The translations under genes and the position numbers were made by a program. Positions 5,330 to 64,000 of a DNA stretch of 64,000 nucleotides are shown here, one piece after another. The stretch comes from an uncultured Poribacteria bacterium (GTDB taxonomy: Bacteria > Poribacteria > WGA-4E > WGA-3G), in contig CATQHZ020000001.1 in assembly GCA_958296135.2 (NCBI GenBank), positions 2,816,001-2,880,000 of the forward strand. Reading direction: 5' to 3'. Within the stretch, counting starts at the first letter, position 1. Each line of letters opens with the position of its first letter. Under the pieces are notes generated by a model, which saw only the letters and a program-made list of their open reading frames with translations, was not told the origin of the DNA and searched no databases.

Positions 5330-8300
5330 CTACCCATCAACCCCCAATGCCCCCAATCCGGAAACAATCCCCACCGTCTCCACACTCAACCCAACCACCT
5401 GACGCACCAAGCGCACGATGGACTCCGCATCCGAAACGCAATTCGGATCGTTCACAATACCACTGCTTTTATCAGGTTTCACGCGATACTGGTCTACCAC
5501 CCACTCTAACGCCGAACGACTCCCTAACCGATACGCAAACGCCACCGCAGGAATCCCATCCAACGTCAGGAAATCGTTGTAGCGGAGGGATGTCCGATCT
5601 TTGGAAAATTTCATCTGCGACACACGCCAATCTAACGGCGCACCCGGCGTTTCAATTAACCGAAGCGTCCCATCAACTGGCAACTCCTCATAATGGAGAT
5701 GCAAGTGTGCCAACCGCTCTCCCGCCTTCACGAACTCCCAGAAATCTGGCGCGAACGGCATACGCGGCAAATCGCGCTTCAAATCTGCCTGATACCGCTC
5801 CCGATACTGGGGATGATGCAAGACACCGTAGCAATAGTGGAAAATGTCCCACTTCGTGATGCTCGCATCGCCGTAATGCGCACGAAACGCCGATAATGCC
5901 CACGCCGTAATGTTCTCACGACGGTTCGTGCCATCCTCATCGTAGGTGTAAAACGGAAAGCATTGCGCGATTTGGAGGAGCGCGCTGTTCGGAAGCACAT
6001 CCGCCATTAACACCTGAAACGGTTGGCTACTTCCGGTCGCGCTGACACAAATGACCTGGTTTTCTGTCTCAGTTTGAGGTGTGGGAAAAAAGGACGGAAG
6101 CAGGTAGATTACGTCGATGAGATGTCTGTCAAAATATAGATTCCTTTTTGTAAAGGGACGATAGAGCGTGGTCCGCATCTTCTCTTCGGCATACTCAGCA
6201 ATCTTGCCGCGTTTCAGTTTCGCTTTCAAGTCGCGACTCCAACTGATTTGCTGCTGATTGACGGTGACGAAATCATCGACGTTTGTCGCTGCCTTGTCCG
6301 CAAGTGCCTGCCACTGAAACATCTGGGTATTGTAGAAATCCATCGTTCTCCGAACGTTCTTGGCGAGGGCGCGTTTGTCGGCGTTAATCACCCAGGCATC
6401 CCGTCCGGTCTTGAAGCCGTTGCAGTATTGGTGGAAAATCACGCCAGATACATCGCCTTTCGTGGCTTTCGCTTCCTTCGTCCCCATCGGGATGAAAGAG
6501 GCAAACTCGGAGCGGAGCCCTTCCGTAATCCACGTATACCGCGCGTCCGGCTGAAGCCGCTGCCACGTAACGTTGCCGACGTGTTCGCGTGTCTTCAGGA
6601 AGTCAAACGTATCCTCTTTGCTCGCCTCCGCCGTTTCGTCGTTGTAAAAAATTCGAGGGGGGGGTCTCTCCTACCTGTCGAGACCGGGAGGTCTCTCCTA
6701 CCGGGGAGGCGGTTTGCGTTACCGTAGCGCGAGGGCCTGTCCCTCGCGAGGCCAAAGGGCCTACCGGAGAGGCGGTTCGAGACCGGGAGGTCTCTCCTAC
6801 CTGTCGAGACCGGGGGGTCTCTCCTACCGGGGATTTTTTGACAAAAATGTTGATGCTCACGCCGACCTGGATGCCGAAGACGTTGGCAGCACCGGGTTGT
6901 CCCTTGCGGATATTGCCGCCCATGTCAAACAGATACAGCGTGTCAAAATCTTGGGCGAGATGCTTCCGCATCCCATCAAACGACTGCCCAGTGATGAAGT
7001 TGTTATTCGTCACAAGCGCGACGATACCCGCGCCTTCAAGCCGCTTCAATGCCCAGAAGATCGCTTTCACATAGGGATCGTAGAGCATATTTGTGTTCGT
7101 TGAGGCAGAGTCTTGGACGTAGGTCTGCTGCACCTGCTTATCAAGGGCCGGGTACTTCCGATTCTTATTGTTGTCGTTTTCGTTCGTCTGCTTGGCGTTG
7201 TATGGCGGATTGCCGATGACGACAAACATCGGCGACTGCTTTTGCGTCTCAACCCGGCGCGTGTTATCCGGGGCGAACATCGTCACCTGCCGCGCATCCG
7301 TCACATCAAACGTATCCACAAGGCAGATTTTATCGTAAGGGAGATACTGCTGCGTCGCGACATAATACTCATGCTCAATGTTCATGCTCGCGATATAGTA
7401 GGGCAAAAGCAGCACCTCGTTGCAGTGGAGCTCCTCGCGATATTTCGACCGGAGTGCCGTTTTGTCGATTTCCTGCATCAGCCGCACGATGAAGTTGCCG
7501 GTGCCGACGAACGGATCGATGATGTTCACCCCGCTATCCGAAAGCGTCCTGTTGAACTCGGTTTTCAGGACATGCGAAACGCTCTTCACAATGAAATCGA
7601 CAATCGGCTGCGGCGTGTAGACGATGCCGTGCGTATCCGCAACCTTCACAGAGAAGCCTTGGAAGAACTGCTCATACACCGTGTTGATGAAGTGCTGTTT
7701 CTGCGCAAAGTCGATGAAAGTGGTGGCGGCGCGCTCAATAGCGGTATAGAACGGCTTGAGGCTTTTGAGAAACTCGGCACGGTTCCACTGCTGTGAGACG
7801 AGCGCGTCGACTACCTTCTCAATCTCGCGGGCGATGATATTCCGCCGCGTGAAATCGCGGTTATCGAAGACCGAGGTGAAAATCTGTTCGGTGAGGATAT
7901 GTTGAACAAGCATCTCTTCCACGGCAGCCCTTGCGAGATTCGGGTTAATCGCTTCTTGGCATTGGCGATAGAATTCGGCGAATGCCTCCTGAAACAGCGC
8001 GTTGGTCTCCGCTTCGGCGCGGATAAGTGCCGCCAGTTGTTTGCCGAGTGCCGGCACTTTGCCCTTGAATTCGGCGACGGCGCGATACCAATTGGCAATG
8101 TCCGTCTGTTCGTAGTTGAAAAAGGCGCGTAGCACTTGAGCCAGGGCATCCCGATTGGAAATATCCACGTCCAGTACCTGTTCGCCGTTCTGATAGAGAA
8201 TCGCGCGTTTGGGGGTTTGGAAGAGGATGTTATCTGTCGGGTAACCTGCGGCGAATTTCTTGTCGATTTCGGCGGGGAGCTCATCGTGCAGGTCCTTCGC

Positions 8301-8552
8301 TTCCCAGTAGCCGCGCGGCAGCCCGAATTCGTTATCAACCAACATGCCATCGACGACAATGGTGGTATGTTGCGGCGTGCGGAGACGTTTCTCGCAGACA
8401 AGCGTGAGGTTACCCTGCCGAGCGTAGTGCTGGAGGAGCGTTCCGAAAGCAAGTCGCACTGCGCCTTCGTGCGTTTCACCGAGGTGTTCGTATTGCCCCA
8501 GTTCGGCGTAAAAATTCGTTATCGGTTTGTGCGTCGGTTTGATGTCAATCAT
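5330..8552 (-). pseudogene. Type IIG/ISP-like restriction-modification enzyme (nuclease + N6 methylase + LlaBIII-like specificity domain), frameshifted at a C8 tract (6657-6664)
   Basis: ORF 6603-8552: VDG..YWEAK nuclease, GIVYTP, DPFVGTGNF, GNPPY. The shifted frame continues RIFYNDETAEASKEDTFDFL...WITEGLRSEF into ORF 5330-6487 (GFKTGRDAW, YRPF, LKRDLPRMP, YRLGSRSALEWVVDQY). Confidence 0.85.
6657..6832. repeat. Cluster of GTAG-REP-like palindromes inside the RM gene
   Basis: Repeated GTAGGAGAGACCTCCCGGTCTCGA and GTAGCGCGAGGGCCTGTCCCTCGCG; translated as VGETSRSR and SRGTGPRAT. Confidence 0.9.
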
Positions 8553-8677
8553 TGATGTCCTAAATGCTCCACCGGTAGGCGAGGCGGGGCGATGACTTTA
8601 TCGGTTTGTGCGTCGGTTTGATGTCAATCATTGATGTCCTCAATGCTCCACCGGTAGGCGAGGCGGGGCGATGACTT
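8519..8677. repeat. 79-bp tandem duplication covering the RBS and first 11 codons of the RM gene
   Basis: ATCGGTTTGTGCGTCGGTTTGATGTCAATCATTGATGTCC... at 8521 and 8600; one internal mismatch. Confidence 0.95.
8560..8631 (-). CDS. Putative 23-aa leader peptide MIDIKPTHKPIKSSPRLAYRWSI created by the duplication
   Basis: GAGGACATCAATG start in the upstream copy; TAG stop 7 nt before the RM start codon. Confidence 0.4.
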   Translation of the reverse strand: MIDIKPTHKPIKSSPRLAYRWSI

Positions 8678-8682
8678 TGGCG

Positions 8683-10038
8683 TTACTTCTTCACCGCGCC
8701 AAACGTCACCCCTCGCAATAAATGGCGCCGCATCAGAAAGGTGAAAATCGCCACTGGCAATAGAAAAACAAACGTTCCCGCCGCAATCTTCCCCCAATCC
8801 ATGCCGGTAGAGCCAGTCGCGCTAGTAATCGAAGGCGGCGCGGTCACCGCTCTGCCGCCGACTTCCGTTAGCACGAGTGCGAAGGCGAATTCGTTCCACG
8901 CCGTGATGAGACAGAATACCGCAGTCGCCGCCATCCCCGTTACAGATTGCGGCAGCACTACCTTCAGGAACGTTTGGAAGCGCGTGTAGCCATCGACGAG
9001 CGCGGCATCCTCATACTCCCTCGGAATCTCGTCAATAAATCCTTTCATCAGCCAGACTGCGAACGAAACGTTGAACGTCGTATAGAGTAGGATAAGCCCG
9101 AAGTGCGTATCGCGTAGCCCCAGCGCGCTATACATCAGATAAATCGGAATGACGACAACGACAGGCGGCAGCATCCGAGTGCTGAGGATAAAAAAGAGAA
9201 GATCATCCTTCCCAGCAACGTCGAATCGGGAGAAGGCGTAGGCGGCTAACGTGCCTAATCCAACGGCGAGAATTGTGCTACCCCCACCGATGATAATGCT
9301 ATTGAGCAGTTGATAGAAATACTTAGAACCGCCGTTTGCCAATACAACACAGACTGCAATCGTTGCAAAAATAGTGGGACCGATAAAGGCGAGGTGTTGC
9401 CTTTCGGTATCCTGTGGTGGTGCCGAACGCGCGCCACGTCTCCACAACGCGCTCATTGATGAAGGGAAAATGAGGAGATAGGCAGCCACAGCGCACACTA
9501 TCAGCGTCCAAAAGTGGAAACGGACATCCGCTTGGAGGCGGCTCTGAAGCGGCGGCAAACTGAAAAAACTATAGATGCACGTCACAACGAAGATGCCGTT
9601 CCAGACTAAGCCGATGCCCCTCGCTTTTGCAGGCGCGCCCGCCCGGTCGCGCCTCCCCCCGGTAGGAGAGACCTCCCGGTCTCGATTCCCCTCGGTAGGA
9701 GAGACCTCCCGGTCTCGATTGCTTCCCGATTCCTCCCTGTCCCGATTGCTTCCCTGTCCCGATTGCTTCCCTGCAATTGAAAAAAACGCGAACAGGAGCA
9801 TCCCACCAATTGCCTCCACGATAAAGATGAACGCCACCCCCGGTACATCTGCCGAGATCAACTTCTGATAATTTTCCAGCGAAATACTAAAAATGAACTT
9901 GGGGAGTTTAGTGTGGATATCCCCCGGTGCCTTCAGCGATGTCGCCACAATCCAATAAATCGGGACGATATAGAGAACTACGGTGACTGCGATGAGCGCG
10001 ATGATGAGGTAGTGTCCAAAGGTTTTCCGATTCTGCAT
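8683..10038 (-). CDS. Carbohydrate ABC transporter permease (MalG-like) with a large internal insertion containing REP-derived peptides
   Basis: EAA motif EYEDAALVDGY, AWNEF; insert NRDREVSPT x2. Confidence 0.9.
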   Translation of the reverse strand: MQNRKTFGHYLIIALIAVTVVLYIVPIYWIVATSLKAPGDIHTKLPKFIFSISLENYQKLISADVPGVAFIFIVEAIGGMLLFAFFSIAGKQSGQGSNRDREESGSNRDREVSPTEGNRDREVSPTGGRRDRAGAPAKARGIGLVWNGIFVVTCIYSFFSLPPLQSRLQADVRFHFWTLIVCAVAAYLLIFPSSMSALWRRGARSAPPQDTERQHLAFIGPTIFATIAVCVVLANGGSKYFYQLLNSIIIGGGSTILAVGLGTLAAYAFSRFDVAGKDDLLFFILSTRMLPPVVVVIPIYLMYSALGLRDTHFGLILLYTTFNVSFAVWLMKGFIDEIPREYEDAALVDGYTRFQTFLKVVLPQSVTGMAATAVFCLITAWNEFAFALVLTEVGGRAVTAPPSITSATGSTGMDWGKIAAGTFVFLLPVAIFTFLMRRHLLRGVTFGAVKK

Positions 10039-10045
10039 AAGCGTG

Positions 10046-10948
10046 CTATGCTTCTCCCTTTACACGATTGAGATATTTGACGTAGATGTTGCTCAGCGCG
10101 ACGATAATGACGAGCAGGAGATACGCCATCGCGCACGCTTTGCCGGTGTTATAGTTCCGAAACGCCAGCTTGTAGAGGTTCATCGAGACAGTCTCGGTGA
10201 CTGTGCCGGGGCCCCCTTCGCGCGTGAGGACATAAACGATGTCGAACATTTTGAACGCATCCATCGTGCGGAACAAAAGCGCGATGAGCAAGAGCGGCGA
10301 CACCAACGGCAGCGTAATCCATCGGAACTTGAACCACGCGGAGGCTCTGTCCACATCGGCGGCTTCATAGAGAGATTTCGGCACCGCGCTTAATCCTGCC
10401 AGCGCGATGAGCATCATAAACGGGGACCACATCCACGTATCAACGATGACGACTGCCAGCATGGCTACCTTAGGGTTCGTCGTCCAGCCGATAGGCGATT
10501 TCAGAAAGGGACTCAGGAAAAAGTTAAGCAATCCCGCGTTATCGGAGGAGAGGATGAATCGCCAAAAAAGTCCCACGACGACAGGCGACAGCATCATCGG
10601 CAGCAGGAGTAGCGTCGTAATGAAGCCTTTATACCGGAAATCGCGATTGAGCAGCAGGGCGAGCCCAAACCCGATTAGGAATTGCGCAGCGACAGCTAAG
10701 ACGACGAAATAGGCGGTGGTTTGGAAGTAACCCCATATCTCGGGGTCTGCAAGAAGACGCGTGTAGTTACGCGTGCCGATAAACTTCGCCGCCGTCGGCA
10801 TCGAGGCTTTATAGCGATGGAAACTTAAATAGAGGGACCACAGCAACGGGAAAATGTTCATCAAGATAAGCAAAACCATCGTCGGCATGATGAATGCCAT
10901 CTTGAGTTGGTAGTCGCTCATTCCACGCGAAAAACGGTTTGTTTGCAT
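10046..10948 (-). CDS. Carbohydrate ABC transporter permease (MalF-like)
   Basis: LYEAADVDRAS EAA motif, TM helices, GGPGTVTET. Confidence 0.9.
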   Translation of the reverse strand: MQTNRFSRGMSDYQLKMAFIMPTMVLLILMNIFPLLWSLYLSFHRYKASMPTAAKFIGTRNYTRLLADPEIWGYFQTTAYFVVLAVAAQFLIGFGLALLLNRDFRYKGFITTLLLLPMMLSPVVVGLFWRFILSSDNAGLLNFFLSPFLKSPIGWTTNPKVAMLAVVIVDTWMWSPFMMLIALAGLSAVPKSLYEAADVDRASAWFKFRWITLPLVSPLLLIALLFRTMDAFKMFDIVYVLTREGGPGTVTETVSMNLYKLAFRNYNTGKACAMAYLLLVIIVALSNIYVKYLNRVKGEA

Positions 10949-11123
10949 ATATTTTTCATAAGAACGCGGGTTTTGAGACCGGCATTGCACGGCAAGGGAC
11001 AGTGGACATCTCTGCAGCGAAGCGGCAGAGATGACAAAGTTTCGGTGTGACGGCCCTCGCCCTACGGGATGAGGAGCGTTCTCAATAGGGCGAAGGACAG
11101 GCCCTCGCCCTAAAAAGAGTTAC

Positions 11124-12443
11124 TTACTCATCGTAGTAGCCGGCATCCTCGAAGATTTCCTCGTGCTTGCGGGCGATAGCATCGAGTGCCTCCTTCGCGG
11201 ACTTGATTTTGGAGATAGCCGCACTCCAATTCGTCTGGCATACTTCTAACAGCTCCGCATATTCCGGCACCGCCCAGAAATCGCGAAGATACGGGAAACT
11301 CGCAGCGAACGCCTCGTTAAAGGGTGTCGCCTGCTTGAACGCGTCCGATTGCAACACCTCTTTATACGGTGTGAAACCACCGAGCTGCGCCCACTTCTCC
11401 TGAACCGGCTTCTGCATGAACCACTTCATATACTGCTTCGCGACATCCTGATTTTTGGAATACGCGGAAATGGACATGCCTTGCCCACCGATGCTGATAT
11501 AGTGCCCCTTCGGACCGGCAGGTGCGATGAAGAAGCCGCTCTTGTCGTGGGAGATCGGATTCGTATCCGCGTTGACTACACCGGGGAAGAAGGCGAAATA
11601 GTTCATCGCCATCGCAACCTTTCCGGAAGTATAGGCATTCAGCGTCTCCAACCAATAATAGTTGGGGCCGTCCGGCGGCGCGAATTGAAGCAAATCCGTG
11701 TAAAATTCAAGTGCCTTAACAGCATCTTCGGTGTTGAGGTGCCCCGCCACTTTATAACTCTCTGCATCGCCGTATGCGCCGCCGAAACTCCACATCACCT
11801 GTTGGAAGCCCATGGTGATGCCATCGTATTCCTTGCTATACCACGTCGCGATACCGTAGAGGTCCTTCTCCGGGCGCGTGAAAAATTCGGCGATGTCGCG
11901 GAGCTGCGCATAGGTTTTGGGCGGTGCCAGCGCGTAGCCGTATTTCGCTTGGAACATCTCCATCTCACCCGGGTCTTCAAAAAGGTCTTTCCGGTAGACA
12001 TAACCGGCGGCATCCACTTCCGCGGGCAGTGCCCAATACTTTCCGGTGCCTTTCGGATATTCCGCGAACGCTGTCATCGCCGGTCCGTAGATAGCGTCAA
12101 CGTCAATATTAGCGTTAATCCATTCGGTAAGAGGAATGTAGTGTCCACCGACAGAATTTCTCCCAAGCCACTGGCTATCGCCGATGACGATGTCGTAAAG
12201 GTCGCTCTTCCCGACAAAGGCGGTGAATACCTTATCTTGAAAATTCGACCAAGGTATCTGGACGACATCAACAGGAATCCCCGTTTCGGCAGTAAAGTCC
12301 TTGGAGAGTTCCGCTAGATAATTTGCAGGATCCCATTCTGCCCAGACGATGGTGAGGGATTGCTGCGCGTTCGCGGGTATGCTGACGAATACCAACGCAA
12401 CGATTAGCACGAATACCAGACTGATCTGAACGTTTTTCATCAT
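11124..12443 (-). CDS. Sugar ABC transporter substrate-binding protein
   Basis: Signal peptide, YRKDLF, GKVAM, GGQGMSI; AAGGAG RBS. Confidence 0.9.
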   Translation of the reverse strand: MMKNVQISLVFVLIVALVFVSIPANAQQSLTIVWAEWDPANYLAELSKDFTAETGIPVDVVQIPWSNFQDKVFTAFVGKSDLYDIVIGDSQWLGRNSVGGHYIPLTEWINANIDVDAIYGPAMTAFAEYPKGTGKYWALPAEVDAAGYVYRKDLFEDPGEMEMFQAKYGYALAPPKTYAQLRDIAEFFTRPEKDLYGIATWYSKEYDGITMGFQQVMWSFGGAYGDAESYKVAGHLNTEDAVKALEFYTDLLQFAPPDGPNYYWLETLNAYTSGKVAMAMNYFAFFPGVVNADTNPISHDKSGFFIAPAGPKGHYISIGGQGMSISAYSKNQDVAKQYMKWFMQKPVQEKWAQLGGFTPYKEVLQSDAFKQATPFNEAFAASFPYLRDFWAVPEYAELLEVCQTNWSAAISKIKSAKEALDAIARKHEEIFEDAGYYDE

Positions 12444-12821
12444 GTTATGCTCCTTTGTGTGCATTGATTGCGAGGCGCGGGGCCTCGTTAACATTTGTGT
12501 CGCGGCTAGCGTTTGCACGCCACTGAAGGAAGCACGCGATTTTTAAACATTATAGCAAATCACAAAAATTTTGCAAGAAAATTTTAGGCGTGAAGAGAAA
12601 AGTCAGAAATGTGGGTAGGCGCGCTTGTATGAAGATGAATGGAAACGGGCGGATAGAGACATCCGCAGCTGTCCCGCAGTTCCGTAGGACGAGGGGAACC
12701 TGTCCCTCGCCATGCAACGAAACTCGCGGGGGAAACCCTCGGCAGTTAGTGACTGCCGGGCCCCCGCGCTACGTTCCAAGGCGGGTTATCGCGCCCACGG
12801 GGTGGGTTCAGCACAAGAGCG

Positions 12822-14207
12822 TTAATTGGCTCGTTTCAGCGAGATGCCGCCGCCCAAACCGCGAAGTTTCAAAAGCGGCCCGCCGCCGTTAATCGTCCCC
12901 TGCAACTGGCCCGGTTTAACAGGCCCCGTCACCTCCGAGACGACCGGAAATTCTGTCTTCACTGCGCCGCCGAGCCCTTTGGCATCGACGTTCACCGCAA
13001 CATCGGGGATGAGGATAATCTCAATGCTGCCGCCAGCTGTCTCCAAAACACACTCGTCCTGAATCTGTCCGCGGAGATGCGCGCGGATGCTGCCGCCAGC
13101 GGCTTTCGCGTTGACAGCACCGTCAGTCTCCAAATCCACACTCCCGCCGGCAGTTTTTACATCTGCGCCGCCGGTGCACTCGCTCAGTAAGAGATTACCG
13201 CCGGTGGTTCGCCCGGTGATACCCCCAATGACTTCGGTGAAGTGGAGATTGCCGCCGGTCGTTTTCGCGTTCACATCGCCGGTGCCGGTTTGCACCTCAA
13301 TACTGCCACCGGACGTTCGGAGCGCCGCGTCGCCTTCAAAACTCTGTAAGGCGATGCTGCCACCAGCGGCGCGTCCGTCCATTTTGCCGGTGATGTTCTC
13401 AAGCCGAAGTTCACCGCCAGCCGTTCGCGCGTTCACGTCACCCGCGAGATTCTCAACGGAGATGTCATCTCCTACTGTCTTCAAATCGACGTTATAGCGA
13501 CGCGGCACAATGATGTCGAACTGCACATCCAATCGGCTGCGCGCTTTATCCAATACTTTCTTCGGGCCTTTGAACACCGCAGCGATTTTTACATCGGACG
13601 CATCGTGTGTGACGGTGACATCGAAAACTTTGAGGAGTTCACCGGCGCGCCGGTCTGCCTTCAGCTGCGCCGAACGATGCACCCGCAACGCCAGTGTGTC
13701 ACTCTCCGCTGTCTGAACGTCAATCGCACCAAGAGCGGTATCAACCGTGAGACATCCACCGGGCGCGACCGGAAACGCCTCCTCTATGTCCTCTAAAGTG
13801 CTCTCAGTTAAGAAATCGGGGACAGACTTGCGAATCAAATCGCCGATCTTCTCTTCAGCCTCGCTCAGTTCTTCCTGAACGTTCTCCAAGAACCGTTTTC
13901 CAAAAAAGCCGGTTACCCACCCTTTGAAATCGGAGGTGGTGACTAATTCCTCGTTGAGATAAGCGGCGAGTTGATGGCACGCGATGCCTATCTCGCCAAA
14001 AGATGCTTGCGCTCCGAGTGCCTCGAAGAGCCCTTCCGGCACGGCATCAATGTCGCGCAGGCGGGCCAGCACGTTATTAAATTGGGCAATGCATCGGGGT
14101 TCACCAGCTTTGAAAGCGTCCGTATGCACTGCGTCCTCTGCGAGTTTCGCGGTATGTTCCAAGAGATGGAATAGCCCGCGGAGCTCCCTTTGCGTCTGTT
14201 GTTCCAT
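12822..14207 (-). CDS. DUF4097 (putative adhesin) beta-strand repeat protein
   Basis: Repeated TxGGxI/L motifs; C-terminal GTINGGGPLLKL. Confidence 0.8.
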   Translation of the reverse strand: MEQQTQRELRGLFHLLEHTAKLAEDAVHTDAFKAGEPRCIAQFNNVLARLRDIDAVPEGLFEALGAQASFGEIGIACHQLAAYLNEELVTTSDFKGWVTGFFGKRFLENVQEELSEAEEKIGDLIRKSVPDFLTESTLEDIEEAFPVAPGGCLTVDTALGAIDVQTAESDTLALRVHRSAQLKADRRAGELLKVFDVTVTHDASDVKIAAVFKGPKKVLDKARSRLDVQFDIIVPRRYNVDLKTVGDDISVENLAGDVNARTAGGELRLENITGKMDGRAAGGSIALQSFEGDAALRTSGGSIEVQTGTGDVNAKTTGGNLHFTEVIGGITGRTTGGNLLLSECTGGADVKTAGGSVDLETDGAVNAKAAGGSIRAHLRGQIQDECVLETAGGSIEIILIPDVAVNVDAKGLGGAVKTEFPVVSEVTGPVKPGQLQGTINGGGPLLKLRGLGGGISLKRAN

Positions 14208-14339
14208 AATATACACCTCTATAAACCTGTGTCGGGCCTTATGCAGCGCCCAGTCCCGAACTGCCAGCATCGGGACCAGGAGGTCCCTCCTACTGAAAGA
14301 GGAGATCCGAGCGCGATTGCAAACCGCGCCTCCCGCAAA

Positions 14340-34040: not shown

Positions 34041-34042
34041 CG

Positions 34043-52245: not shown

Positions 52246-52323
52246 GTAGCCGCAATGAATTGATACCACCGGTAGGCGCGCTTACAACGCGTGCCCGCGG
52301 GAGAACTCTGAGGAAAAACACAC

Positions 52324-54755: not shown

Positions 54756-55658
54756 ATGCAAACAAAAACACGCATAGACACATTACTCGTGCAGCGCAAA
54801 CTCGTCCAAAGCCGGGAACAAGCCAGACGCTTCATCTTAGCCGGTTCCGTTCGCATCAACGGACAAGCCCAAACCAAACCAGGGAACCGCGTCTCCACTG
54901 ATGCCGACGTTGTCCTGTTGCACCCCCAAAAATACGTCAGCCGCGGCGGTATCAAATTAGAAAAGGCCCTCCGTGTTTTTGACATAGACGTGCAAGAGCG
55001 GGTTGCGCTGGATGTCGGTGCCTCCACCGGTGGCTTCACCGATTGTCTGCTCCAACACGGCGCACAGTTCGTCTACGCCCTCGATGTCGGGTATGGGCAG
55101 CTCGCGTGGAAACTCCGAACCGACCCGCGCGTCAAAACCGTAGAAAAAACCAATATCCGTAGCGTAGCACCAGAATTATTCAGAAATTGCACCAGTAGGA
55201 GAGCCCTCCCAGTCTTGAATCCCCAACATCCTGAGTCCGTAGCGCGAGGGTTTGTCCCTCGCGACGGCTCGCCGTTACACCTCGCTGTCATCGATGTCTC
55301 CTTTATCTCCCTCAGGACAGTTTTGCCCAAGGTTATCGCCCTCGGTCCGCAGGACATCATTGCCCTCATGAAACCCCAATTTGAGGCGGGGCGCGCACAC
55401 GTGAAAAAAGGTGGAATTGTGCCCGATAAACACGTGCATATTGAGACACTCAACAATCTCAGTGCCTTCTGCGCGGAACATCTCACTGCAGGCTTGCAAG
55501 GGTTGACATACTCACCGATCCGCCGCGACATCCGAAACATCGAATACCTTCTCTGGCTGCAACCCGGCGTTCCCGGAAAAACCGAGTCCGCGGAAGAGGT
55601 CGTCCACGCAGCCCATCATCATTTTCAGGTGGGGAGAGAACCGTGCGTCACTTCATAA
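54756..55658 (+). CDS. tlyA: TlyA family rRNA 2'-O-methyltransferase with in-frame REP insert
   Basis: S4 domain, YVSRGG.KL, DVGASTGGFTD, DVSFIS, KPQFE. Confidence 0.92.
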   Translation: MQTKTRIDTLLVQRKLVQSREQARRFILAGSVRINGQAQTKPGNRVSTDADVVLLHPQKYVSRGGIKLEKALRVFDIDVQERVALDVGASTGGFTDCLLQHGAQFVYALDVGYGQLAWKLRTDPRVKTVEKTNIRSVAPELFRNCTSRRALPVLNPQHPESVARGFVPRDGSPLHLAVIDVSFISLRTVLPKVIALGPQDIIALMKPQFEAGRAHVKKGGIVPDKHVHIETLNNLSAFCAEHLTAGLQGLTYSPIRRDIRNIEYLLWLQPGVPGKTESAEEVVHAAHHHFQVGREPCVTS

Positions 55659-58600
55659 GACGTTTTATCCAGCGCAAGATTCTATTAGGCATTCTCGCCG
55701 TTTTCAGTCTGACACTCATCGGCGGCGCACTCTTCATCCGTTCAGACGCGTTCCTGAATTGGATAAAACACCGCGCCGAAGCCGAAATCCGCAACCGGAT
55801 AGAGGCTACCTACACCGTAGAGATTGGCAAAATCACCGGGAATGTGCTGACAGGTGTCAAGCTTGATAACATCGCGGTGTTTCCAACCGATGGTACACCT
55901 GACGAGCCTATCTTGGCTCTGCAGCAGCTTGTTCTCAAGTACAACCTATTCGCGCTGCTCCGCCGCAAAGTTGAGGTGACGACACTTGAAATTTCCAAGC
56001 CGCGTCTTCACGCCCAAGTGGAGGCAGGAGGGCATTTCAACCTGACACAACTCTTTAGGTTAGAAGACACCCCCAAGTCCGTAGGGCGAGGGCCTGTCCC
56101 GCGCGATGCCTCGGACAACGGCGTGTCTTCTTGGACATTTGCCGTGCAACGCGTCCGCTGTTCCGATGGCACCCTCCGCTTCTCCGATAGACAGCGCGAC
56201 CTAGACATCACCGTTACCGGCGTTACTCTAGATTTCCGGGGGCCGCTCACCACATGGCATCATCAAGGCACCTTCAGCATCAACAATGGCACCGTCGCCT
56301 TCAACGATGCAGAGACAGCGATAACGGCTTTTGACGCAGATTTTCTCATTGTCGCCAGCGGTGGCCAGTTAACCCAGTTACGTATCAACGTTGGCAACTC
56401 CGTTTTAGACGCGACTGGCAGTTACGATGAAGCCATGAATTGGCGCGCCAACGTTGACATTCAGGTGGATGCCGCCGATATCCAAAAATTCGCGATGCCG
56501 CCGGTGAGGCACATCCCATCTCTTCGAGGCAAAACCCCGGATCCTTTAAACCGCTTTAGAGGTAACATGTTTAGAGGCATTGCGTCCCTTCATATCACAG
56601 CTGAAGGCACACCAGACACGGTATCTGGCATCCTCACTGCGACGGTGCCGCATTTCACAATATCAGGACTCTCCGGTCATTTCACACCTACTGGCGGCGC
56701 GCTGAATATTCGCGATGTAGCAGTGGCGGCAGATTTCAGCACGCATCCTGTCCCAACGTTTGCGCTCAACCGCTTGCAGATGCACGTTGCCGAGGGACTC
56801 TTCCAAGCGAGCGCGCGTATGAAAATAGAACGGAATCGGCTGACTCGGTTACCTGCCTTTGAAGGCAGGTGGCATGCCGCTGGCATCCAACTCGCCGCCA
56901 TTCCGCCGATGCAACCTTTCCGCAACTGGGAGGGCAGCGTCACCACAACCGGCACTTTCAGCGGCAAAGGCACGGACATTAGCGGGCTCCGGCTGGATAG
57001 CATTTTGGAAGTGACAGATACCCTGCTGAACGGTATCCCCGTTGCGGATTCACGTCTTACAGGCACCCTTGTTGCACCGCCGCTAGCAAGGGTTGAGAGA
57101 TTGCAAGGGACAGGCCCGCGCCCTGCGGTTAAAAGCGCGGTTTCAACCCGCGCCTACGGGAGAGTCAGTGAACTCAACGTTATCGGCACACTTGCAGAAG
57201 CGAACGTGTATCTCGGCGGGTTCCTTGGAGAAGATTTGCGTCTCCACGCTACCTCACTCCGTATGGACAAACTGATGGCTATTTTCGGCGGCGCGCCCCT
57301 CAACGGACTTGGGGAGATGAACGCGAAGATTTCAACGAATGGATGGGAGCCGAGATGGACATCGGGCGGTTCTAGCAATCCGCCCTTGAGCGGTTCTATC
57401 GAAATTCCTCATACAACTTTCATGGATGTCCCGATTGGTATGCTGGCAGGCGATTTTCGTTATCAAGATGGACAGGTGTTCGTTGAAAACGGACTCCTGA
57501 CAAAAGGGGATAGCCGCGTCTCCATAGAAGGAACGGTGGATATGGAAGGCGAGCTCCCCGCGAACTTCCGTGTCCTCGCCGAACCGTGCCAAGTCGCCGA
57601 GTATCGGCAGCTCTTATTCGGGAGCGCCGAATATGATGTCACCGGTCTTGTCACTGGCGAACTGATATGTGATGGTTCGCTCACCCGTCTTGACGGTAGA
57701 GGAACGTTTGATGTTACCGAGGGCTACGCTTGGGGTATGCGTTTAGATGCATTAAAGCTCCCATTAGCAATTGAAGACTACGCCATCACTATCGCGGATT
57801 TCCAGATTTCAGCGAGAGAACAGCAGGTAGTGCTGAATTTGGAGATGGCGGCATCCGGCGACTTCGATTTGGACATCCGGAGCCGTGTCCCCGTGCAACT
57901 CGTCGAACTCGTGCGCGCCGCCGATGTCCCAGATTTTCCGATAGATGCAGCCATGGACATCGTCTCTATCGGGACACAGCGGGAAAAGCAATTTAACCTG
58001 GGTGTGGACATCACGCTGGCTGACATCACATACCAAGGTAATCCGCTAACCGATGCCACCCTGCATGGCACCCTCGTTGAACGAGAAAAGGCGACAGGTG
58101 AACCAGACATTTTTCAATTTGTTGGGGAAGCATTTGACGGTGCGAGCCAAATCACCGGCGAAATTAGCACCGCTACCGATAGTCCCTATCACTTCGCCGT
58201 GCAGAGCCGCGCGATGCCTGCCACCCCTATCTTGCGGTGCCTCCATCCGATGCTGGATGCAGTGACAGGCACAGCGGATAGCACGGTTGAAATCACCGGA
58301 ACATTGGCAGAACTTTCGCCTAAGAACAGCTCAAAGTCAGCGAGCGAGCGCGAGGGACAGGCCATTACGTCTAAACGAAAGACATCGGGTGTTGCCTCGC
58401 AAAAGCGCGATGAACGGCACGCGCTACGGACGCAGCGTCGGGTGTATCCCTACGACGTGGATATTACCGTTGAGGCGACAACGCTTCACTATCGGGGTGT
58501 ACCGATGACAAATCCTCACCCTATTCGCCTCCACCTTATTGATGACGTGTGGACGTTCACCGATGTCGCCCTTATCATAGAAGAACGGGCGGATAGAGAC

Positions 58601-61600
58601 ATTCGCAACCCCGGTCAAAAAGTCACCGGCACCTTTTCTGCACGAGATGAAGTGATGGACATTAAAGTAACATCGGCAGGAGTTGCGCTTGAACCCGTAG
58701 GCACAGCGTTCGGCATCCCTATTGATGGCACAGCGCGCTATGAAATGTCTATAAACGGAACGGTGACTGCGCCGAGGCTCGCACTTGAAGTGACGGTGCC
58801 TGAGTTGCGAGTGCAAACGGAATTCGGAGGCATCCTTTTATCCACAGCAGGCGCGCGGGTTCGTTACGAGAATAACTCGGTGCAGATTGAACCGTTCGTC
58901 TTGCAAATCCATGGGAATAAAATAGACGTAGCGGGTGACATTGCTGTGATGCCAGAGGACGTGAACGCATCACGGCTGAACGTGAACCTCCGCGCGCCGC
59001 AGTTGGAACTCGCGAATTATGAGCATTTCATCAGGGACGTTATGCCGCCTGGCATTGACTTATTCGGTGCATCGCGAGGGACAGGCCCTCGCGCTACGGT
59101 TACAGAGGATGTTGGTGTGTCGCGCGGGACAGGCCCTCGCGCTACGGTTACAGGGGATGTCGGTGTGTCGCGCGGGACAGGGCTTCGCGCTACGGTTACA
59201 GGGGATGTCGGTGTGTCGCGCGGGACAGGCCCTCGCGCTACGGGTGCAGCGGATGCGGAAGGGATAACGGGCTCGCTAGACGTTTCCGTAGACGTAACAG
59301 GCAGTCTGGCTGAGCCTCTAATTGCCGTTCAGGCCGGCTCCGCTGCAACCAACCTCTCGGAAATTCGCATCGGCAAGTTTCCACAGCCGATTGTTTTGGA
59401 CGCGCTGCAGGCCAATGTTACACTAAATCGGGAGACGATGCATATCGGCGACGTTGACGCAAACTGGCGGATAGGCGATGCCACTTATCACGCACAAGGC
59501 GAGGCGAGCTTCCCCGGCTCAAGCGAGCGCGAGGGACAGGTTTCTGCGCAACGGCTTGAGGACAGGGGCTTGACACCGCGGTTCGCGTTCACTGTATCCG
59601 CAAATCAGTTGGAGGTAGCCGATTTTGCTGTCCTGTTCCTCAAACAGGCCGAACCGTCGATACACGGCACGCTTTCCGCAGAAGTGGCATTGACAGGGAC
59701 AGGGATATCGCCAGACCGGATTTCGGCAGTGTGCGAGATGCGTTCGCTTAACCTCCGCATTGGCACGGTGGACATCGCTAGCACTGCGCCGCTTACATTT
59801 GCATCAGTCTATGGAAGTCTTGAGGGAAACTTCCCCGCTTTGGCGATAGTCTCACCGCTGATGGAGACACAGTTGAGCGTGGAGCTCGGTGGCACGCACG
59901 CAGCCCCAAACATCACCGCTGATTGGCAGGGCACTTTCTACCACCTCGGCTGGCGCGGCACTGTTGATTACCGTGACGAACACATCACCGTTCATCGCAT
60001 GGAACTCGCCTCGCGGGAAGGGAAGACATTAACGCTGACCGGCGGTATCCCGTTCGATCTTGCGTTGGAAGCCGTGCCGGTAGCGGAACGGTTTTTGGAG
60101 AAACCCATGGCGGTGCGTCTCCGCGGAAACGAACTGCCTCTTGCGTTTTTCCCGCGAGTGGCCGAGGTGATTTCAGAGCACGAAGGCGTTGTCGATATTG
60201 ACATGCGTATCGTTGGCACAACGCGCGCGCCGCGGCTCAGTGGGAGCGTTTCCGTGTTGGCACCGCATCTCCGCTTGAGGGACTTTCCGGAGCCAATTCA
60301 CAACGCAACGCTGCACCTCAAAGCGGGTGAGGATGGGCTTGATTTCACACAATTCCGTTTTGAGAGCGGATCCGGTGACTGCACAGGACAGCACGGCTAC
60401 ATAGGGCTTGACGGCCTCATCCCGAAAGAATTTGCGTTCACAGGGCTGCGCATCCGCCGGTTTCCGCTCGGAGCCCTCGCGCGGCAGGCTGTCCCGTCCG
60501 AGGTGCTAGGGGAGGTTCGCGGACATGTCACCGCCACTCTATCGGAATTCCGAATACCGCTAGATAGTTTTTTCACAGCGGCGATTCCCGGTGTGCTTTT
60601 TCCGCGATTCAGCCGAGTGCCTTCGCTTACTGCACTTGTCGAGGTTGCCACCGCATCAGCGTTAATAGAAGACGTTGACTTCGCCTTTAACGCGGAAGTA
60701 ACGGGCTCAGGCGAGCCTATTCACTATGACTTTCGGAACACAGAGCCCGTGCTGCTCGTGCTAGAGGGAGGCAGTGCACGCCTTGCGCAGGAACTTTTGA
60801 TGAAAGATTTTTCGTATTTGCATGAGGCGTTCGGTAAGGACACGGCGCGCCGTGACGTGCCGATTTTTAGGATAGAGGGTGATTTTTCCGCGCAGCTCAA
60901 CGCGGGTATTCTGCCCTCGGAACTTCAAACGCGATTGCAGAAACGCGCGCCGATGGAAACCTACACGCTCACGAAAAGAGAAGGCTTGTGGCGCGTTGCG
61001 GGTGTGGATGCAAGCATCGGCAACGGCGATGCGGTTTGGAAAAACACCCCTCTCTCTCTGCCTCGCGAAACACAAAAAATCTGGATTTGGCAGCGGGTGC
61101 CGGCCTCTGTTTCCTCACAGAAACAGCCCAAAGGACGGATGCAGATTTTTGAGGCATCCCTTGCGCTTGGCATAGACAGAGAGGCATCTTTTGGGCTCAA
61201 GGCAGATTTCTCGCGGCAACTTGATGCGGGGACGATGCCTGCAGCACTTCGCAGCCAATTGCAGTCCAAAGGGCTTATGCTTCCGGAGACGCTCCGCGTC
61301 GCCAAAATCGACACCCTCTGGCAGGTGCAGGATGAAGAGACCAAACGTCGTTGGACATTCGTCCAAGAGAACGCTTCGCTATCGGTTTTTGAGCACAGCC
61401 TTCAGCTCAGTGTAGATAAGGGGAGCGAAATTCAGGTGGCGGTGTGCGATGTCGTGGGGCGCGTCAAGAATTTTGATGTCTCGCCGCTGACGATGGACTG
61501 GCCTATGGCATATCGGGTGAAAGGGACACTGTCCGCGAGTTTACATATTGGAGACACCGGCGGGGCCCCTCAGATAACGCTCCGGCGGAAAAAGCCGAGG

Positions 61601-62998: not shown

Positions 62999-64000
62999 GG
63001 GCATCGTCGTGACGCTCTGCTTTTGCCTAATAACTGCTTCAGCATTAGGGCAGCCCGAGTTACAGCGGGGAGAACTTTTTACCGTAGGGCGGGGGCCGTT
63101 ACGCCTTCAGTCTGTCATCTCTGTGGGTTTTCCGGCGGCGATGTCCACTGTTCCTCGCCGTGCAACGGTGATGCGGGACATCGCAGGGGACAGGCCCTCA
63201 CGCCACGTGCCAAACCACGTTGCAGAACGTGCCTCGTTCGCTGTGCCGGTCGCGCATCTTGCCTATCACCTCGATGCTATTCCCGTTACCGACGTAGAAA
63301 CGTTGTCGATACTTCGCGAGCGCACCTATCTCAAAGTCGGCGAACCTTTTTCTCGCCATGCTATCCACCGGAGTGTTGTCTCGCTCTATGCTTCGGCGCA
63401 GTTTTCAAAGGTTGAGGTTTACGCGAAGGAATCTCATAACGGTGTGTCGCTGACGTTTTCACTCACTTCTGTGAGGCGCATCGCGGCCGTCCACACGCTT
63501 GGTGTGCCGGAAGAGTTGCGTCGTCTACTCCAAAGTGCTATGAAGAGGATTCTGCCGCGGGGGCAGAATCGGTTACAAGTCGGCGAGTCGTATCACCCCG
63601 CTTACGCGCAGCGGGATGTTGCTGGTATCAAAGCGGGGTGCGCGGCTCTGGGGTATTTTGGTGCTACCGTAAAGGCAACATTCTCGCAGGAAACAGGCAC
63701 TCTGACGTATCAGATAACCCTTGGCGCGCCCTCGCGGGTTACTGACATTCAGATTCAGGAGAATACAGCAAGTTCGACGCAGACGCTCAAAGATGCCCTG
63801 CATATAAGCCGAGTAGGCGAGATTTACCGGCGGGCTGCTGTGGAGACGGATGCCGATGCACTCGTGGCACTTTACCGGAAAAGGGGTTACCTCGCGGCGA
63901 CAGTGCTCCACACCTTCGCGCCAGAAACGGGTATCTTGCAATTTTCTGTTGATGCCGGCAAACGGCTTGTCTTCATATTCCTTGAAGAACCCTTAACCAC
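62955..64000 (+). CDS. BamA/TamA family outer-membrane protein (POTRA domains), 3' end outside window
   Basis: Manual translation: MKHTVLIS...LKVGEPFS...LYASAQFSKV...LYRKRGY; frame open to the window end. Confidence 0.75.
   Translation, partial: MKHTVLISNLKAGFRGIVVTLCFCLITASALGQPELQRGELFTVGRGPLRLQSVISVGFPAAMSTVPRRATVMRDIAGDRPSRHVPNHVAERASFAVPVAHLAYHLDAIPVTDVETLSILRERTYLKVGEPFSRHAIHRSVVSLYASAQFSKVEVYAKESHNGVSLTFSLTSVRRIAAVHTLGVPEELRRLLQSAMKRILPRGQNRLQVGESYHPAYAQRDVAGIKAGCAALGYFGATVKATFSQETGTLTYQITLGAPSRVTDIQIQENTASSTQTLKDALHISRVGEIYRRAAVETDADALVALYRKRGYLAATVLHTFAPETGILQFSVDAGKRLVFIFLEEPLT

What the first reader, a model, noticed from the sequence alone, without database searches (positions are those of the whole stretch)
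6657..63206. GTAG-REP palindromes inserted in frame in at least nine different proteins
Seen: the same ~25-nt GTAG-led hairpins that fill the intergenic DNA also sit inside reading frames as extra peptides. They occur in the RM enzyme (6657-6832), ABC permease (9629-9772, NRDREVSPT), TRAP permease (19784-19842, HRAREGAPT x2), nucleotidyltransferase (~24390-24410, remnant), heparinase-like protein (36316-36340 WRGTGPRPTG; 36935-37006), SelD (49151-49181), TlyA (55195-55264, VARGFVPRD), TamB (56081, 57103, 58341, 58586, 59072-59243, 59522) and BamA (63084-63206). Several frames of both strands are used ([29 protein letters not shown]), never the frame that reads TAG. Known: GTAG REPs are mobilised by RAYT Y1 transposases and are typically extragenic; Rickettsia RPEs are the classic coding exception. 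Inference: a lineage-wide system that continually grafts Pro/Arg/Gly-rich loops into housekeeping and envelope proteins.
Basis: partly seen in the sequence, partly recalled or inferred. Interest (0 to 1): 0.85.

Follow-up and report, generated by a model that had tools for sequence, protein, structure and literature searches.

The report
REP hairpins translated inside Poribacteria genes
Small mobile DNA hairpins (GTAG-type REP elements, spread by RAYT transposases) really do sit in frame inside many genes of this sponge-symbiont (Candidatus Poribacteria) genome as extra protein loops, but this behaviour of REPs has been described before in other bacteria, so it is a rich new example and not a new phenomenon.

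Summary
The genome holds about 2,800 GTAG-led REP hairpins in at least four families. It also has two RAYT genes, each embedded in arrays of its own REPs. About 78% of copies are intergenic and about 17% lie in ORFs.

Orthologue alignments confirm in-frame, genus- or species-specific REP-coded inserts in seven proteins: the ABC permease, TRAP permease, heparinase-like protein, SelD, TlyA, TamB (several sites) and BamA. Flanks on both sides are under purifying selection (dN/dS 0.05-0.43).

Two of the nine cases fail or are weak:
- The restriction-modification gene is frameshifted by its REP array, which is 160 nt longer than the orthologue.
- The nucleotidyltransferase "remnant" is only a 4-8 residue extra with an imperfect hairpin.

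The best explanation is passive. RAYT-driven REP spread is filtered by selection, so only stop-free inserts of multiple-of-3 length in tolerant loops survive. It is not a dedicated loop-grafting system.

Intragenic GTAG REPs were catalogued by Di Nocera et al. 2013 (for example about 70 rows for Opitutus terrae), and this scan has noted the same thing in other genomes. What is new here:
- the host lineage;
- the scale (at least 134 genes);
- a 10-fold difference in REP copy number between congeners;
- re-insertion at one TamB site in opposite orientations.

The parts
6657..6835 (-). REP array (four to five family-B units and one family-A unit) at the methyltransferase/specificity-domain linker of a DrdV-like single-chain RM gene. 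It shifts the frame and splits the gene into ORFs 6603-8552 and 5330-6487.
   Evidence: HMM hits. PDB 7lo5, one chain of 1029 aa, aligns to both ORFs. Three-frame translation. The G002 orthologue has an open frame of 1035 aa and matches only residues 1-578. The segment is 160 nt longer than in G002, and a C8 run lies at 6657-6664.
9629..9772 (-). In-frame insert in the ABC (BPD_transp_1) permease, between two conserved hydrophobic helices. It holds two perfect family-B REPs (peptide NRDREVSPT) plus B-like half repeats, about 40-46 residues in all.
19782..19842 (-). Two GTAGGCGYGCCCTCYCGGGCGCG hairpins read as HRAREGAPT and HRAREGTPT, in a hypervariable loop of the fused TRAP (DctM) permease.
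   Evidence: (D12).
24390..24410 (-). Possible REP remnant in the NTP_transferase gene: an imperfect hairpin with no GTAG. The genus carries 4-8 extra residues here.
   Evidence: Weak.
36307..36354 (+). Exact 48-nt (16-codon) insertion in the heparinase II/III-like gene. It carries one antisense family-A REP, read as WRGTGPRPT.
36935..37008 (+). Composite palindromic element (a CTCTGCAGCGAGGCGGCAGAG hairpin plus a degenerate family-A REP) in frame in the heparinase-like gene. It is 88% identical to the intergenic copy at 11005-11078, and the same composite flanks RAYT2.
   Evidence: (D10, D16).
49146..49190 (+). Hairpin of a low-copy dispersed family (GGGCGGATGTCGTTCAT..CCGCCC) in frame in the SelD-like (AIRS/AIRS_C) gene.
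   Evidence: The fuzzy core pattern matched 43 places, of which roughly 25-30 are clear hairpin copies, mostly intergenic.
55192..55264 (+). Family-B plus family-A REP pair in frame in TlyA (TSRRALPVLN...SVARGFVPRD).
   Evidence: In the AF2 model, pLDDT <50 falls at model residues 147-169 (the insert) and at the C-terminal 295-300.
56079..56106 (+). Family-A REP in frame in TamB (SVGRGPVPRD).
57085..57159 (+). TamB: a 48-nt insertion specific to this genome, holding a REP (RLQGTGPRP). It sits directly beside an older family-C double-foot REP (SAVSTRAY) that is shared with G002.
58341..58366 (+). Half-REP remnant (SEREGQ) inside a TamB insert of about 35 residues specific to this genome.
   Evidence: 8.9 bits, below threshold.
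59062..59253 (+). Four tandem 48-nt units in TamB, each with an antisense family-A REP ([16 protein letters not shown]). At the same site G002 carries REPs in the opposite orientation (VARGPVPRN) plus a family-B unit.
   Evidence: (D1, D6).
59521..59553 (+). Half-REP remnant (SEREGQVSA) in TamB.
   Evidence: D3; 6.9 bits, below threshold.
63081..63207 (+). Degenerate inverted REP pair (REPIN-like, 41-42 codons) in frame between the signal peptide and the first conserved segment of BamA.
730..52296 (.). Twenty intergenic REP copies of families A-D spread along the window (for example 730-755, 11042-11112, 23112-23408, 26082-26251). They belong to the same families as the coding copies.

Best explanation
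These are GTAG-type REP/REPIN elements of a Candidatus Poribacteria genome. They are short hairpins with a GTAG foot and are multiplied by REP-associated tyrosine (HUH/Y1) transposases.

Shown:
- Four main families (A-D, about 2,800 copies) fill the intergenic DNA.
- Family B surrounds RAYT1, and families A and D surround RAYT2.
- A minority of copies lie inside genes, and there they are read as part of the protein.
- They are absent from orthologues in other genera and often from congeners.
- The host genes are conserved on both sides of each insert.
- The one confident structural model places the TlyA insert in a low-confidence loop.

Inferred: insertion is not aimed at genes. Copies that carry a stop, shift the frame or hit structured parts are removed by selection. 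What remains is stop-free, a multiple of 3 in length, and sits in linkers or variable loops.

Five of the six frames of the family-A unit are open, and the peptides are rich in Gly, Pro and Arg. This makes survival relatively likely.

Once a REP sits in a loop it acts as a landing pad. New units insert beside it, or amplify in tandem, as at the TamB sites and in the ABC permease. Occasionally the array breaks the gene, as in the RM gene.
For: REP identity and abundance.

RAYT genes:
- RAYT1 scores 127.7 bits against NF047646 (cut-off 80) and has 14 family-B REPs within 1.2 kb.
- RAYT2 scores 29.8 bits against PF01797 (cut-off 23) and has 16 family-A/D REPs within 1.2 kb.

Selection filter:
- Of the 2826 copies, 2207 are intergenic, 136 overlap a gene end and 483 lie in ORFs, although 84% of the DNA is ORF.
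- Spacing between neighbouring REPs of the same family and strand is a multiple of 3 in 89 of 95 pairs in ORFs, against 182 of 591 outside.
- Clean insertions of exactly 48 nt occur in the heparinase-like gene and in TamB, and the TamB tandem unit is 48 nt.

Inserts missing from orthologues.

Host genes are not pseudogenes: dN/dS against G002 is 0.05-0.43 in 13 flanking segments of four genes.

Loop location: the TlyA AF2 model has mean pLDDT 82.5, and pLDDT <50 falls only at model residues 147-156 and 158-169 (the insert) and at the C-terminus.

Landing-pad behaviour: the new 48-nt unit abuts the older shared family-C REP in TamB, and at one TamB site G000 and G002 carry REPs in opposite orientations.

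Failure case: the RM gene.

Not an artefact of the genome assembly: per-run contigs of 4 runs (one sample, possibly the source) cover 54700-59098 and 59214-63095 with 0 differences in three runs.

Precedent: PMC3733652.
Against: - No direct evidence of translation. No RNA run was listed and no proteomics is available.
- Gene calls come from my own crude dicodon ORF caller, which takes the longest ORF. 143 of the 483 in-ORF hits fall in the first tenth of their ORF and are probably upstream of the true start.
- The multiple-of-3 statistic is partly circular, because an array with period 3n keeps one open frame and can itself lengthen an ORF call.
- Only one confident structural model was obtained. 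The ABC permease model was too poor to use.
- TamB carries 6 hits where 0.84 are expected, and the frame usage of families B and C is uneven. A purely neutral filter does not obviously predict either.
- Family C has no neighbouring RAYT in this 95%-complete assembly.
- RAYT2 is below the NCBIfam cut-off (57 against 80 bits).
Confidence: 0.85

Rival explanations
1. Adaptive loop diversification. The REP-coded peptides are retained because they are useful, for example as fast-changing exposed loops in envelope-assembly proteins (TamB, BamA) and transporters of a sponge symbiont. Alternatively the in-gene hairpins act at the RNA level, in pausing, stability or attenuation.
For: - TamB holds 6 REP hits where 0.84 are expected.
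- The same TamB site carries different REP arrangements in two congeners.
- Some inserts are kept in both species: SAVSTRAY in TamB, plus the SelD and nucleotidyltransferase extras.
- Frame usage is uneven. Family C reads ARLxSAPT in 39 of 69 robust copies, and the open SRPGGLSY frame of family B appears in 0 of 55.
Against: - Host proteins are unrelated in function and include cytoplasmic enzymes (TlyA, SelD, nucleotidyltransferase).
- REPs are about 24-fold rarer per kb in ORFs than outside.
- One gene is broken by its array.
- TamB is long, fast-evolving (dN/dS 0.22) and rich in indels in all relatives, so enrichment may only reflect tolerance.
- Clustering is expected if REPs insert next to REPs.
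- Frame bias is partly explained by stops in loop variants.
Confidence: 0.1
2. Artefact. The 'inserts' are products of ORF over-extension, pseudogenes or assembly errors in a metagenome-derived genome.
For: - 143 of 483 in-ORF hits lie in the first tenth of my longest-ORF calls.
- ORFs made purely of REP arrays exist beside RAYT1.
- The RM gene is frameshifted next to a C8 run.
- Per-run contigs break at the TamB tandem array and at the BamA REP, so the count of four tandem units is not independently confirmed.
Against: - For the seven confirmed proteins, conserved orthologous sequence continues in the same frame on both sides.
- dN/dS on both flanks is 0.05-0.43.
- Per-run contigs reproduce the TlyA inserts and four TamB inserts without differences.
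- Congeners from other assemblies carry related inserts: G001 in the ABC and TRAP permeases, G002 in TamB, SelD and the nucleotidyltransferase.
Confidence: 0.03
3. Ancestral segments lost elsewhere. The extra peptides are old parts of the proteins that other lineages deleted, and their likeness to REPs is secondary.
For: The TRAP loop exists in all relatives at similar length. The SelD and nucleotidyltransferase extras are shared by the genus.
Against: - The segments are near-identical copies of repeats present in hundreds to thousands of intergenic copies.
- They are absent in five to twelve orthologues from other genera.
- Family A occurs only in this genus (3 of 31 genomes).
- The indels relative to G002 have clean 48-nt boundaries.
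Confidence: 0.02

Closest known systems
Intragenic GTAG- and CGTC-tagged REPs (Di Nocera, De Gregorio, Rocco 2013, BMC Genomics 14:522, PMC3733652; passages and part 1 of 3 of Additional file 3 read)
   Same: - GTAG-footed hairpins of 20-40 nt with RAYT 'REPtrons'.
- Mostly intergenic, with a minority wholly inside ORFs of unrelated function.
- Single units encode about 7-10 residues, and dimers or groups encode 20-80.
- Several frames and both orientations are used.
- Many apparent N-terminal cases are suspected to be mis-annotation.
- The highest GTAG count in that survey was in Opitutus terrae (about 70 rows in the part read).
   Different: - The host is Candidatus Poribacteria, which did not appear in the passages and supplement part I read.
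- The REP sequences differ.
- The conservative count here is larger: 174 copies in 134 genes, and 317 ORFs by the loose count.
- Congener comparisons date individual events and show a 10-fold copy-number burst in a sister species.
Rickettsia palindromic elements (RPE; described in passages of PMC10969869 and PMC3733652. The original Ogata et al. 2000 paper is recalled and was not read.)
   Same: Selfish palindromic repeats inserted in frame into unrelated, functional genes. They add peptide segments that are compatible with the fold.
   Different: RPE-1 type elements are about 100-150 bp and encode a conserved peptide, and no RAYT is assigned to them. The units here are 25-48 nt, have a GTAG foot, are read in five different frames, and are tied to RAYT genes. 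They work alike but this is not a member of that family.
REP/REPIN-RAYT systems (Nunvar et al. 2010, PMC2817692, search listing only. Quentin et al. 2018, PMC6006769, passages read. Bertels and Rainey 2011, recalled.)
   Same: - GT[AG]G guide tetranucleotide at the hairpin foot.
- High copy number.
- Few-copy Y1/HUH transposase genes flanked by their own REPs.
- Inverted doublets.
- 'Double-foot' REPs with GTAG at both ends, which is family C here.
   Different: Those descriptions concern mostly extragenic copies. The subclass of the two RAYTs here was not determined, and no RAYT was found next to family C.
REPs inserted in frame inside tnpA-REP subclass 2.4 genes (Quentin et al. 2018, PMC6006769, passages read)
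   Same: REP copies sit inside a coding sequence without breaking the frame, in a peripheral variable region.
   Different: In that case the host gene is the transposase itself. Here the two RAYT ORFs were not seen to contain REPs; only upstream ORF extensions made of REP arrays were seen.

Membership tests
GTAG-type REP / REPIN elements | 5' GT[AG]G tetranucleotide at the foot of a short G+C-rich hairpin (about 20-40 nt) | tested here: met
   Families A-D all start with GTAG followed by 6-11 bp stems. 8.0% of GTAG sites lead perfect hairpins, against 1.5-2.5% for control tetramers.
GTAG-type REP / REPIN elements | High copy number, predominantly extragenic, often in arrays or inverted pairs | tested here: met
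   2826 HMM hits against 16 on the reversed control; 2207 are intergenic. Close opposite-strand neighbour pairs number 521 outside ORFs and 24 inside.
GTAG-type REP / REPIN elements | A cognate RAYT (Y1/HUH transposase of the REP_Tyr_transpos type) flanked by copies of the same REP | tested here: met
   RAYT1 scores 127.7 bits against NF047646 (cut-off 80) and has family-B REPs on both sides. RAYT2 scores 57 bits against NF047646 (below the cut-off) and 29.8 bits against PF01797 (cut-off 23), and has family-A and D REPs on both sides. No RAYT was found for family C.
GTAG-type REP / REPIN elements | RAYT binds and cleaves its REP as single-stranded DNA and mobilises it | not testable with these tools
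   This needs biochemistry. Recent activity is inferred only from differences in copy number and sites between congeners.
Intragenic (translated) REPs in the sense of Di Nocera et al. 2013 | A REP lies entirely inside a real ORF (>120 aa), in frame and without a stop, with homologous protein sequence on both sides and no insert in shorter homologues | tested here: met
   Met for the ABC permease, TRAP permease, heparinase-like protein, SelD, TlyA, TamB and BamA. Not met for the RM gene, which is frameshifted. Inconclusive for the nucleotidyltransferase.
Intragenic (translated) REPs in the sense of Di Nocera et al. 2013 | The REP-coded peptide is actually present in the protein | not testable with these tools
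   No RNA holder was listed and no proteomics is available. Translation is inferred from the frame and stop constraints.
Rickettsia palindromic elements (RPE) | Element of about 100-150 bp encoding a family-specific conserved peptide read in one frame | tested here: not met
   Units are 25-48 nt and are read in five frames. This works like an RPE but is not a member.

The most novel reading that the evidence does not exclude
In Poribacteria, REP landing pads inside genes may act as self-renewing hypervariable loops. Once a REP is tolerated in a loop, RAYT activity keeps rewriting that spot through new units, orientation changes and in-frame 48-nt tandem amplification. Envelope-assembly proteins and transporters of closely related symbionts would then differ mainly at these sites, and the variation might be used, for example against phage or in dealing with the sponge host. 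On this reading REPs would be a major engine of lineage-specific protein novelty in this phylum, not passive passengers.
Probability: 0.1. Interest if true: 0.6.

Novelty: new member of a known kind. Interest (0 to 1): 0.33.

Why it matters
This finding shows that a sponge-symbiont phylum known only from metagenomes is among the most REP-laden lineages seen: about 0.56 copies per kb, and 3581 exact family-A copies in a sister species. At least 134 of its genes tolerate translated REP segments.

It matters in three practical ways:
- Annotation. REP arrays create false ORFs, false N-terminal extensions and split genes in Poribacteria genomes assembled from metagenomes.
- Comparative genomics. 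Many lineage-specific indels in these proteins are REP copies.
- A natural experiment. The inserts mark where proteins such as TamB, BamA, TlyA and membrane permeases tolerate insertions of 8-64 residues.

It does not change the picture of what REPs are.

Tried and rejected
- AF2 model of the ABC permease from 13 close orthologues: mean pLDDT 51, too poor to place the insert. Only its secondary-structure line puts residues 103-133 in coil between two helices.
- Expression: no RNA holder was listed for window 58800-59600, so nothing can be said about expression.
- Read support: the four runs are one sample and may be the source of the assembly. Their k-mer contigs break at the TamB tandem array (59098-59214) and at the BamA REP (about 63095-63110), so neither the number of tandem units nor the BamA junction is independently confirmed. 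One run's contig had three single-base insertions, taken as contig errors.
- Literature on REPs in this phylum: searches for 'Poribacteria' with 'palindromic' (31 papers, 15 listed), 'Poribacteria' with 'RAYT' (10 papers; in the one I opened the match was the author name Raytselis, and the others were not opened) and 'repetitive extragenic palindrom' with 'sponge symbiont' (1 unrelated review) gave nothing on topic in the listings seen. This covers the held library only.
- TamB 58586 (RADRDIRNP): no REP HMM hit at >=5 bits. Rejected as a GTAG REP.
- Earlier notes on this genome: none fitted.
- Rejected reading: that the hairpins are removed from the mRNA or bypassed. If they were, frame and stop content would not be constrained, yet they are.
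- Not used because not needed: the large protein-database searches, fold searches and complex prediction.

Full report
**What is there**

The window is G000:C1:2816001-2880000 of a 5.19-Mb assembly in four contigs; the main contig has 54% G+C.
- GTAGG occurs 94 times in the window, against 55.1 +/- 7.8 in dinucleotide shuffles. None of 100 shuffles reached 94.
- A scan for GTAG followed by a perfect hairpin found 23 in the window.
- The same scan found 2128 among the 26496 GTAG sites of contig C1 (8.0%). Six control tetramers gave 1.5-2.5%.
- The commonest GTAG-led words define four main families:
  - A: GTAGSGCGRGGGCCTGTCCCYCGCS.
  - B: GTAGGAGAGACCTCCCGGTCTCGA and variants.
  - C: GTAGGCGCGCTTTnnAAGCGCGCCTAC and a GCGG variant. 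This is a 'double-foot' palindrome with GTAG at both ends.
  - D: GTAGGGCGCGGTCCTGTGCCGCGCC.
- Profile HMMs built from these gave 2826 merged hits at >=12 bits on C1: A 1334, B 623, C 561, D 308. The reversed sequence gave 16 summed hits.

**Transposases**

Pfam Y1_Tnp matches two places in the genome, both outside the window.
- C1:3734421-3734834 scores 127.7 bits against NCBIfam REP_Tyr_transpos (cut-off 80). It has HUH-like (DHVH) and Tyr motifs and 14 family-B REPs within 1.2 kb on both sides.
- C1:4791152-4791556 scores 57 bits against the same model, below its cut-off, but 29.8 bits against Pfam (cut-off 23). It is surrounded by 16 family-A and D REPs.
- No such gene was found beside family C.
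- This is the REPtron arrangement described for RAYTs (PMC3733652 and PMC6006769, passages read).

**Where the copies lie**

No annotation was available, so I called ORFs with a simple dicodon model: 3613 calls on C1, covering 84% of the DNA.
- Of the 2826 REP hits, 2207 are intergenic, 136 overlap a gene end and 483 lie wholly in a called ORF.
- Per kb, that is about 2.8 in non-ORF DNA against 0.115 in ORFs (arithmetic).
- Of the 483 in-ORF hits, 143 fall in the first tenth of the ORF. They are probably upstream of the true start, because my caller takes the longest ORF.
- A conservative subset has 40-codon flanks on both sides that score as coding. It holds 174 hits in 134 genes. Copies inside REP arrays, such as three of the TamB units, fail this flank test, so the subset undercounts.
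- Neighbouring REPs of the same family and strand are spaced by a multiple of 3 in 89 of 95 pairs in ORFs, against 182 of 591 outside. This fits a reading-frame constraint. It is partly circular, because arrays of period 3n keep one frame open and so help an ORF to be called.
- All open frames of both strands are used for family A. The TAG frame is necessarily absent.

**The nine claimed host proteins**

Pfam confirms the gene identities. Orthologues came from 30 relatives through the genome search. A 45-kb syntenic stretch of the same-genus genome G002 covers window 26400-64000.
1. **ABC permease.** All 12 other-genus orthologues and G002 match residues 1-90 and 138-451 in one frame and lack the segment between. 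G001 has a shorter REP-like version. The flanking hydrophobic helices are conserved. Confirmed.
2. **TRAP permease.** The two hairpins fill a loop after HFYAKR that varies in sequence and length in every relative, so there is no net gain in length. G001 has related peptides. Confirmed as in-frame REPs, but not as an 'extra' segment.
3. **Heparinase-like protein.** The first insert is an exact 48-nt insertion relative to G002. The second is a composite element that also occurs between genes (88% identity to 11005-11078) and beside RAYT2. G002 has a version 7 residues shorter.
4. **SelD-like protein.** There are 15-16 extra residues relative to two other genera, and 11-12 in G002. The hairpin belongs to a small separate family. 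The fuzzy core pattern matched 43 places, of which roughly 25-30 are clear copies, mostly intergenic and mostly with a GTAA or GTCA lead.
5. **TlyA.** One family-B and one family-A REP give about 19-24 extra residues. G002 keeps only fragments, and 17 orthologues from other genera have nothing there.
   - The AlphaFold2 model was built from 19 orthologues and has mean pLDDT 82.5. Its only segments with pLDDT <50 are model residues 147-156 and 158-169 (ORF residues 153-175, the insert) and the C-terminus.
6. **TamB.**
   - Inserts at residues 147-155, 481-496, about 897-935, 1144-1201 and 1294-1312 are absent from five other-genus orthologues.
   - The insert at 481-496 is a clean 48-nt insertion. 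It sits directly beside a family-C REP (SAVSTRAY) that G002 shares.
   - The block at 1144-1201 is four tandem 48-nt units. At the same place G002 has family-A REPs in the opposite orientation plus a family-B unit.
   - The sites at 58341 and 59522 are sub-threshold half-REPs. The site at 58586 has no REP match.
7. **BamA.** A degenerate inverted REP pair of 41-42 codons lies between the signal peptide and the first conserved segment. It is absent in G002 and in five other orthologues.
8. **RM enzyme.**
   - The solved single-chain enzyme PDB 7lo5 (1029 aa) aligns to ORF 6603-8552 (residues 25-577) and to ORF 5330-6487 (residues 5-378).
   - After the REP array the conserved sequence continues in a different frame.
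   - The G002 orthologue is 91% identical, has an open frame of 1035 aa, and matches only up to residue 578.
   - The segment between two conserved anchors is 160 nt longer here than in G002, and 160 mod 3 = 1. A C8 run lies in the last, shortened REP.
   - As assembled, this gene is split by its REP array. Whether that is a real mutation or a homopolymer consensus error cannot be decided here.
   - A paralogue carries an in-frame REP at the same linker.
9. **Nucleotidyltransferase.** The three genomes of the genus have 4-8 extra residues before the conserved WIDIG motif. The DNA shows only an imperfect hairpin without GTAG. Weak.

**The host genes are alive and the sequence is sound**
- Nei-Gojobori dN/dS between G000 and G002 is 0.05-0.43 in 13 segments on both sides of the inserts in the heparinase-like gene, TlyA, SelD and TamB.
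- Per-run contigs of four public runs (one sample, possibly the source of the assembly) cover 54700-59098 and 59214-63095 with no differences in three runs. This reproduces the TlyA inserts and four TamB inserts.
- Those contigs break at the TamB tandem array and at the BamA REP, as k-mer assemblies do at repeats.

**Lineage and turnover**
- Exact copies of the family-A unit in the species-representative genome collection were all in records titled Candidatus Poribacteria bacterium.
- Among 31 genomes (own plus 30 relatives), the degenerate family-A pattern occurs only in the three of this genus: 361, 542 and 3581 copies. It occurs 0 times in 28 genomes of 12 other genera.
- RAYT genes over the NCBIfam cut-off occur in 17 of the 31 genomes.
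- In TlyA of another genus, a different palindromic element sits in a different loop.
- So the habit is widespread in the order, the REP families are genus-specific, and copy number has changed ten-fold between congeners.

**Mechanism**

Shown:
- The inserts are REP copies.
- RAYTs with matching REPs exist.
- The inserts are lineage-specific, in frame and stop-free.
- The flanks are under purifying selection.
- One insert maps to a low-confidence loop.
- One gene is broken.

Inferred:
- RAYT-driven spread is indiscriminate and selection removes damaging copies.
- Because five of six frames of the family-A unit are open, and the usual unit length is near 48 nt, a fair share of hits in tolerant loops survive.
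- REPs attract further REPs, which produces arrays and re-use of the same site.

Uneven frame use and the excess in TamB (6 hits against 0.84 expected) are not fully explained. They leave a small chance of selection for the peptides or for the hairpins.

**Comparison with what is known**
- Di Nocera et al. 2013 surveyed GTAG and CGTC REPs and listed intragenic copies in many species. The most GTAG cases were in Opitutus terrae, about 70 rows in the part of Additional file 3 that I read.
- They reported the same properties: singles of about 7-10 residues, dimers of 20-30, clusters of 43-82, many doubtful N-terminal cases, and a 'flexible linker or loop' interpretation.
- Quentin et al. 2018 describe double-foot REPs and in-frame REPs inside tnpA-REP genes.
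- A 2024 review treats in-frame fusions by Rickettsia palindromic elements as the extreme case.
- Notes from this scan report the same phenomenon in at least 42 other genomes.
- I found no paper in the held library on REPs or RAYTs in Poribacteria.

**Verdict**

The finding is real and mostly accurate, but it is a new and rich member of a known kind. The proposed 'loop-grafting system' is better read as the surviving fraction of ordinary REP proliferation.

Noticed in passing
window 5330-8552; also G000:C1:1485616-1488897 and other paralogues: The RM gene belongs to a very large paralogous family of single-chain enzymes of about 1030 aa. They resemble DrdV (PDB 7lo5) and combine a methyltransferase with a specificity domain. 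There are 17 matches in this genome, 23 in G002 and 25 in G004, mostly at 56-65% identity. That many copies of one RM architecture is unusual.
   Followed up: partly
G000:C1:221439-223985, 224577-227123, 513547-516093, 2437186-2439723 (848-aa class); 781169-782833 is a shorter ORF with the same REP peptide: A multi-copy WD40-repeat protein of 845-848 aa (a eukaryote-like repeat protein) carries a family-B REP, read as ETGRSLLR, at the same position (about residue 700-707) in four copies. A 554-aa ORF carries the same peptide at residue 411. The insert appears to predate the gene duplications.
   Followed up: partly
genome contig C2 (143,886 nt): Contig C2 has 36.8% G+C, against 54% for the main contig. 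It may be a plasmid, a foreign element or a binning contaminant.
   Followed up: no
window 8519-8676: A 79-nt unit is duplicated in tandem at 99% identity. It spans the 5' end and upstream region of the RM gene and contains a GTAGGCGAGGCGGGGCG motif (D15).
   Followed up: no
window 32595-32840: A 123-nt (41-codon) tandem duplication at 91% identity lies inside ORF 32557-32916 (D7, 19).
   Followed up: no
window 37898-38590 and 42000-42689: Two paralogous genes of about 230 aa lie 4.1 kb apart (300 nt at 83% identity, D2). G002 has both.
   Followed up: no
L011 and L015 (TlyA of two genomes of genus g5): A different palindromic element, with core GGTTTTTCGCAGAAAAACC, is inserted in frame in another TlyA loop. 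It adds about 50 residues, and the core is read as KVFRRKT in one genome and RFFCEKP in the other.
   Followed up: partly
L001 (flanks of RAYT1) and L002 (flanks of RAYT2): REP arrays beside the RAYT genes produce stop-free ORFs of 85-117 aa, and a 112-residue false N-terminal extension of RAYT1. These ORFs are made only of REP-coded peptides and are a trap for gene callers.
   Followed up: yes
G002:C1:40400-40402 (start of the heparinase-like orthologue): G002 has an in-frame stop four codons after the ATG that aligns with the start called here. The true start of this gene in both species is probably the downstream Met.
   Followed up: partly
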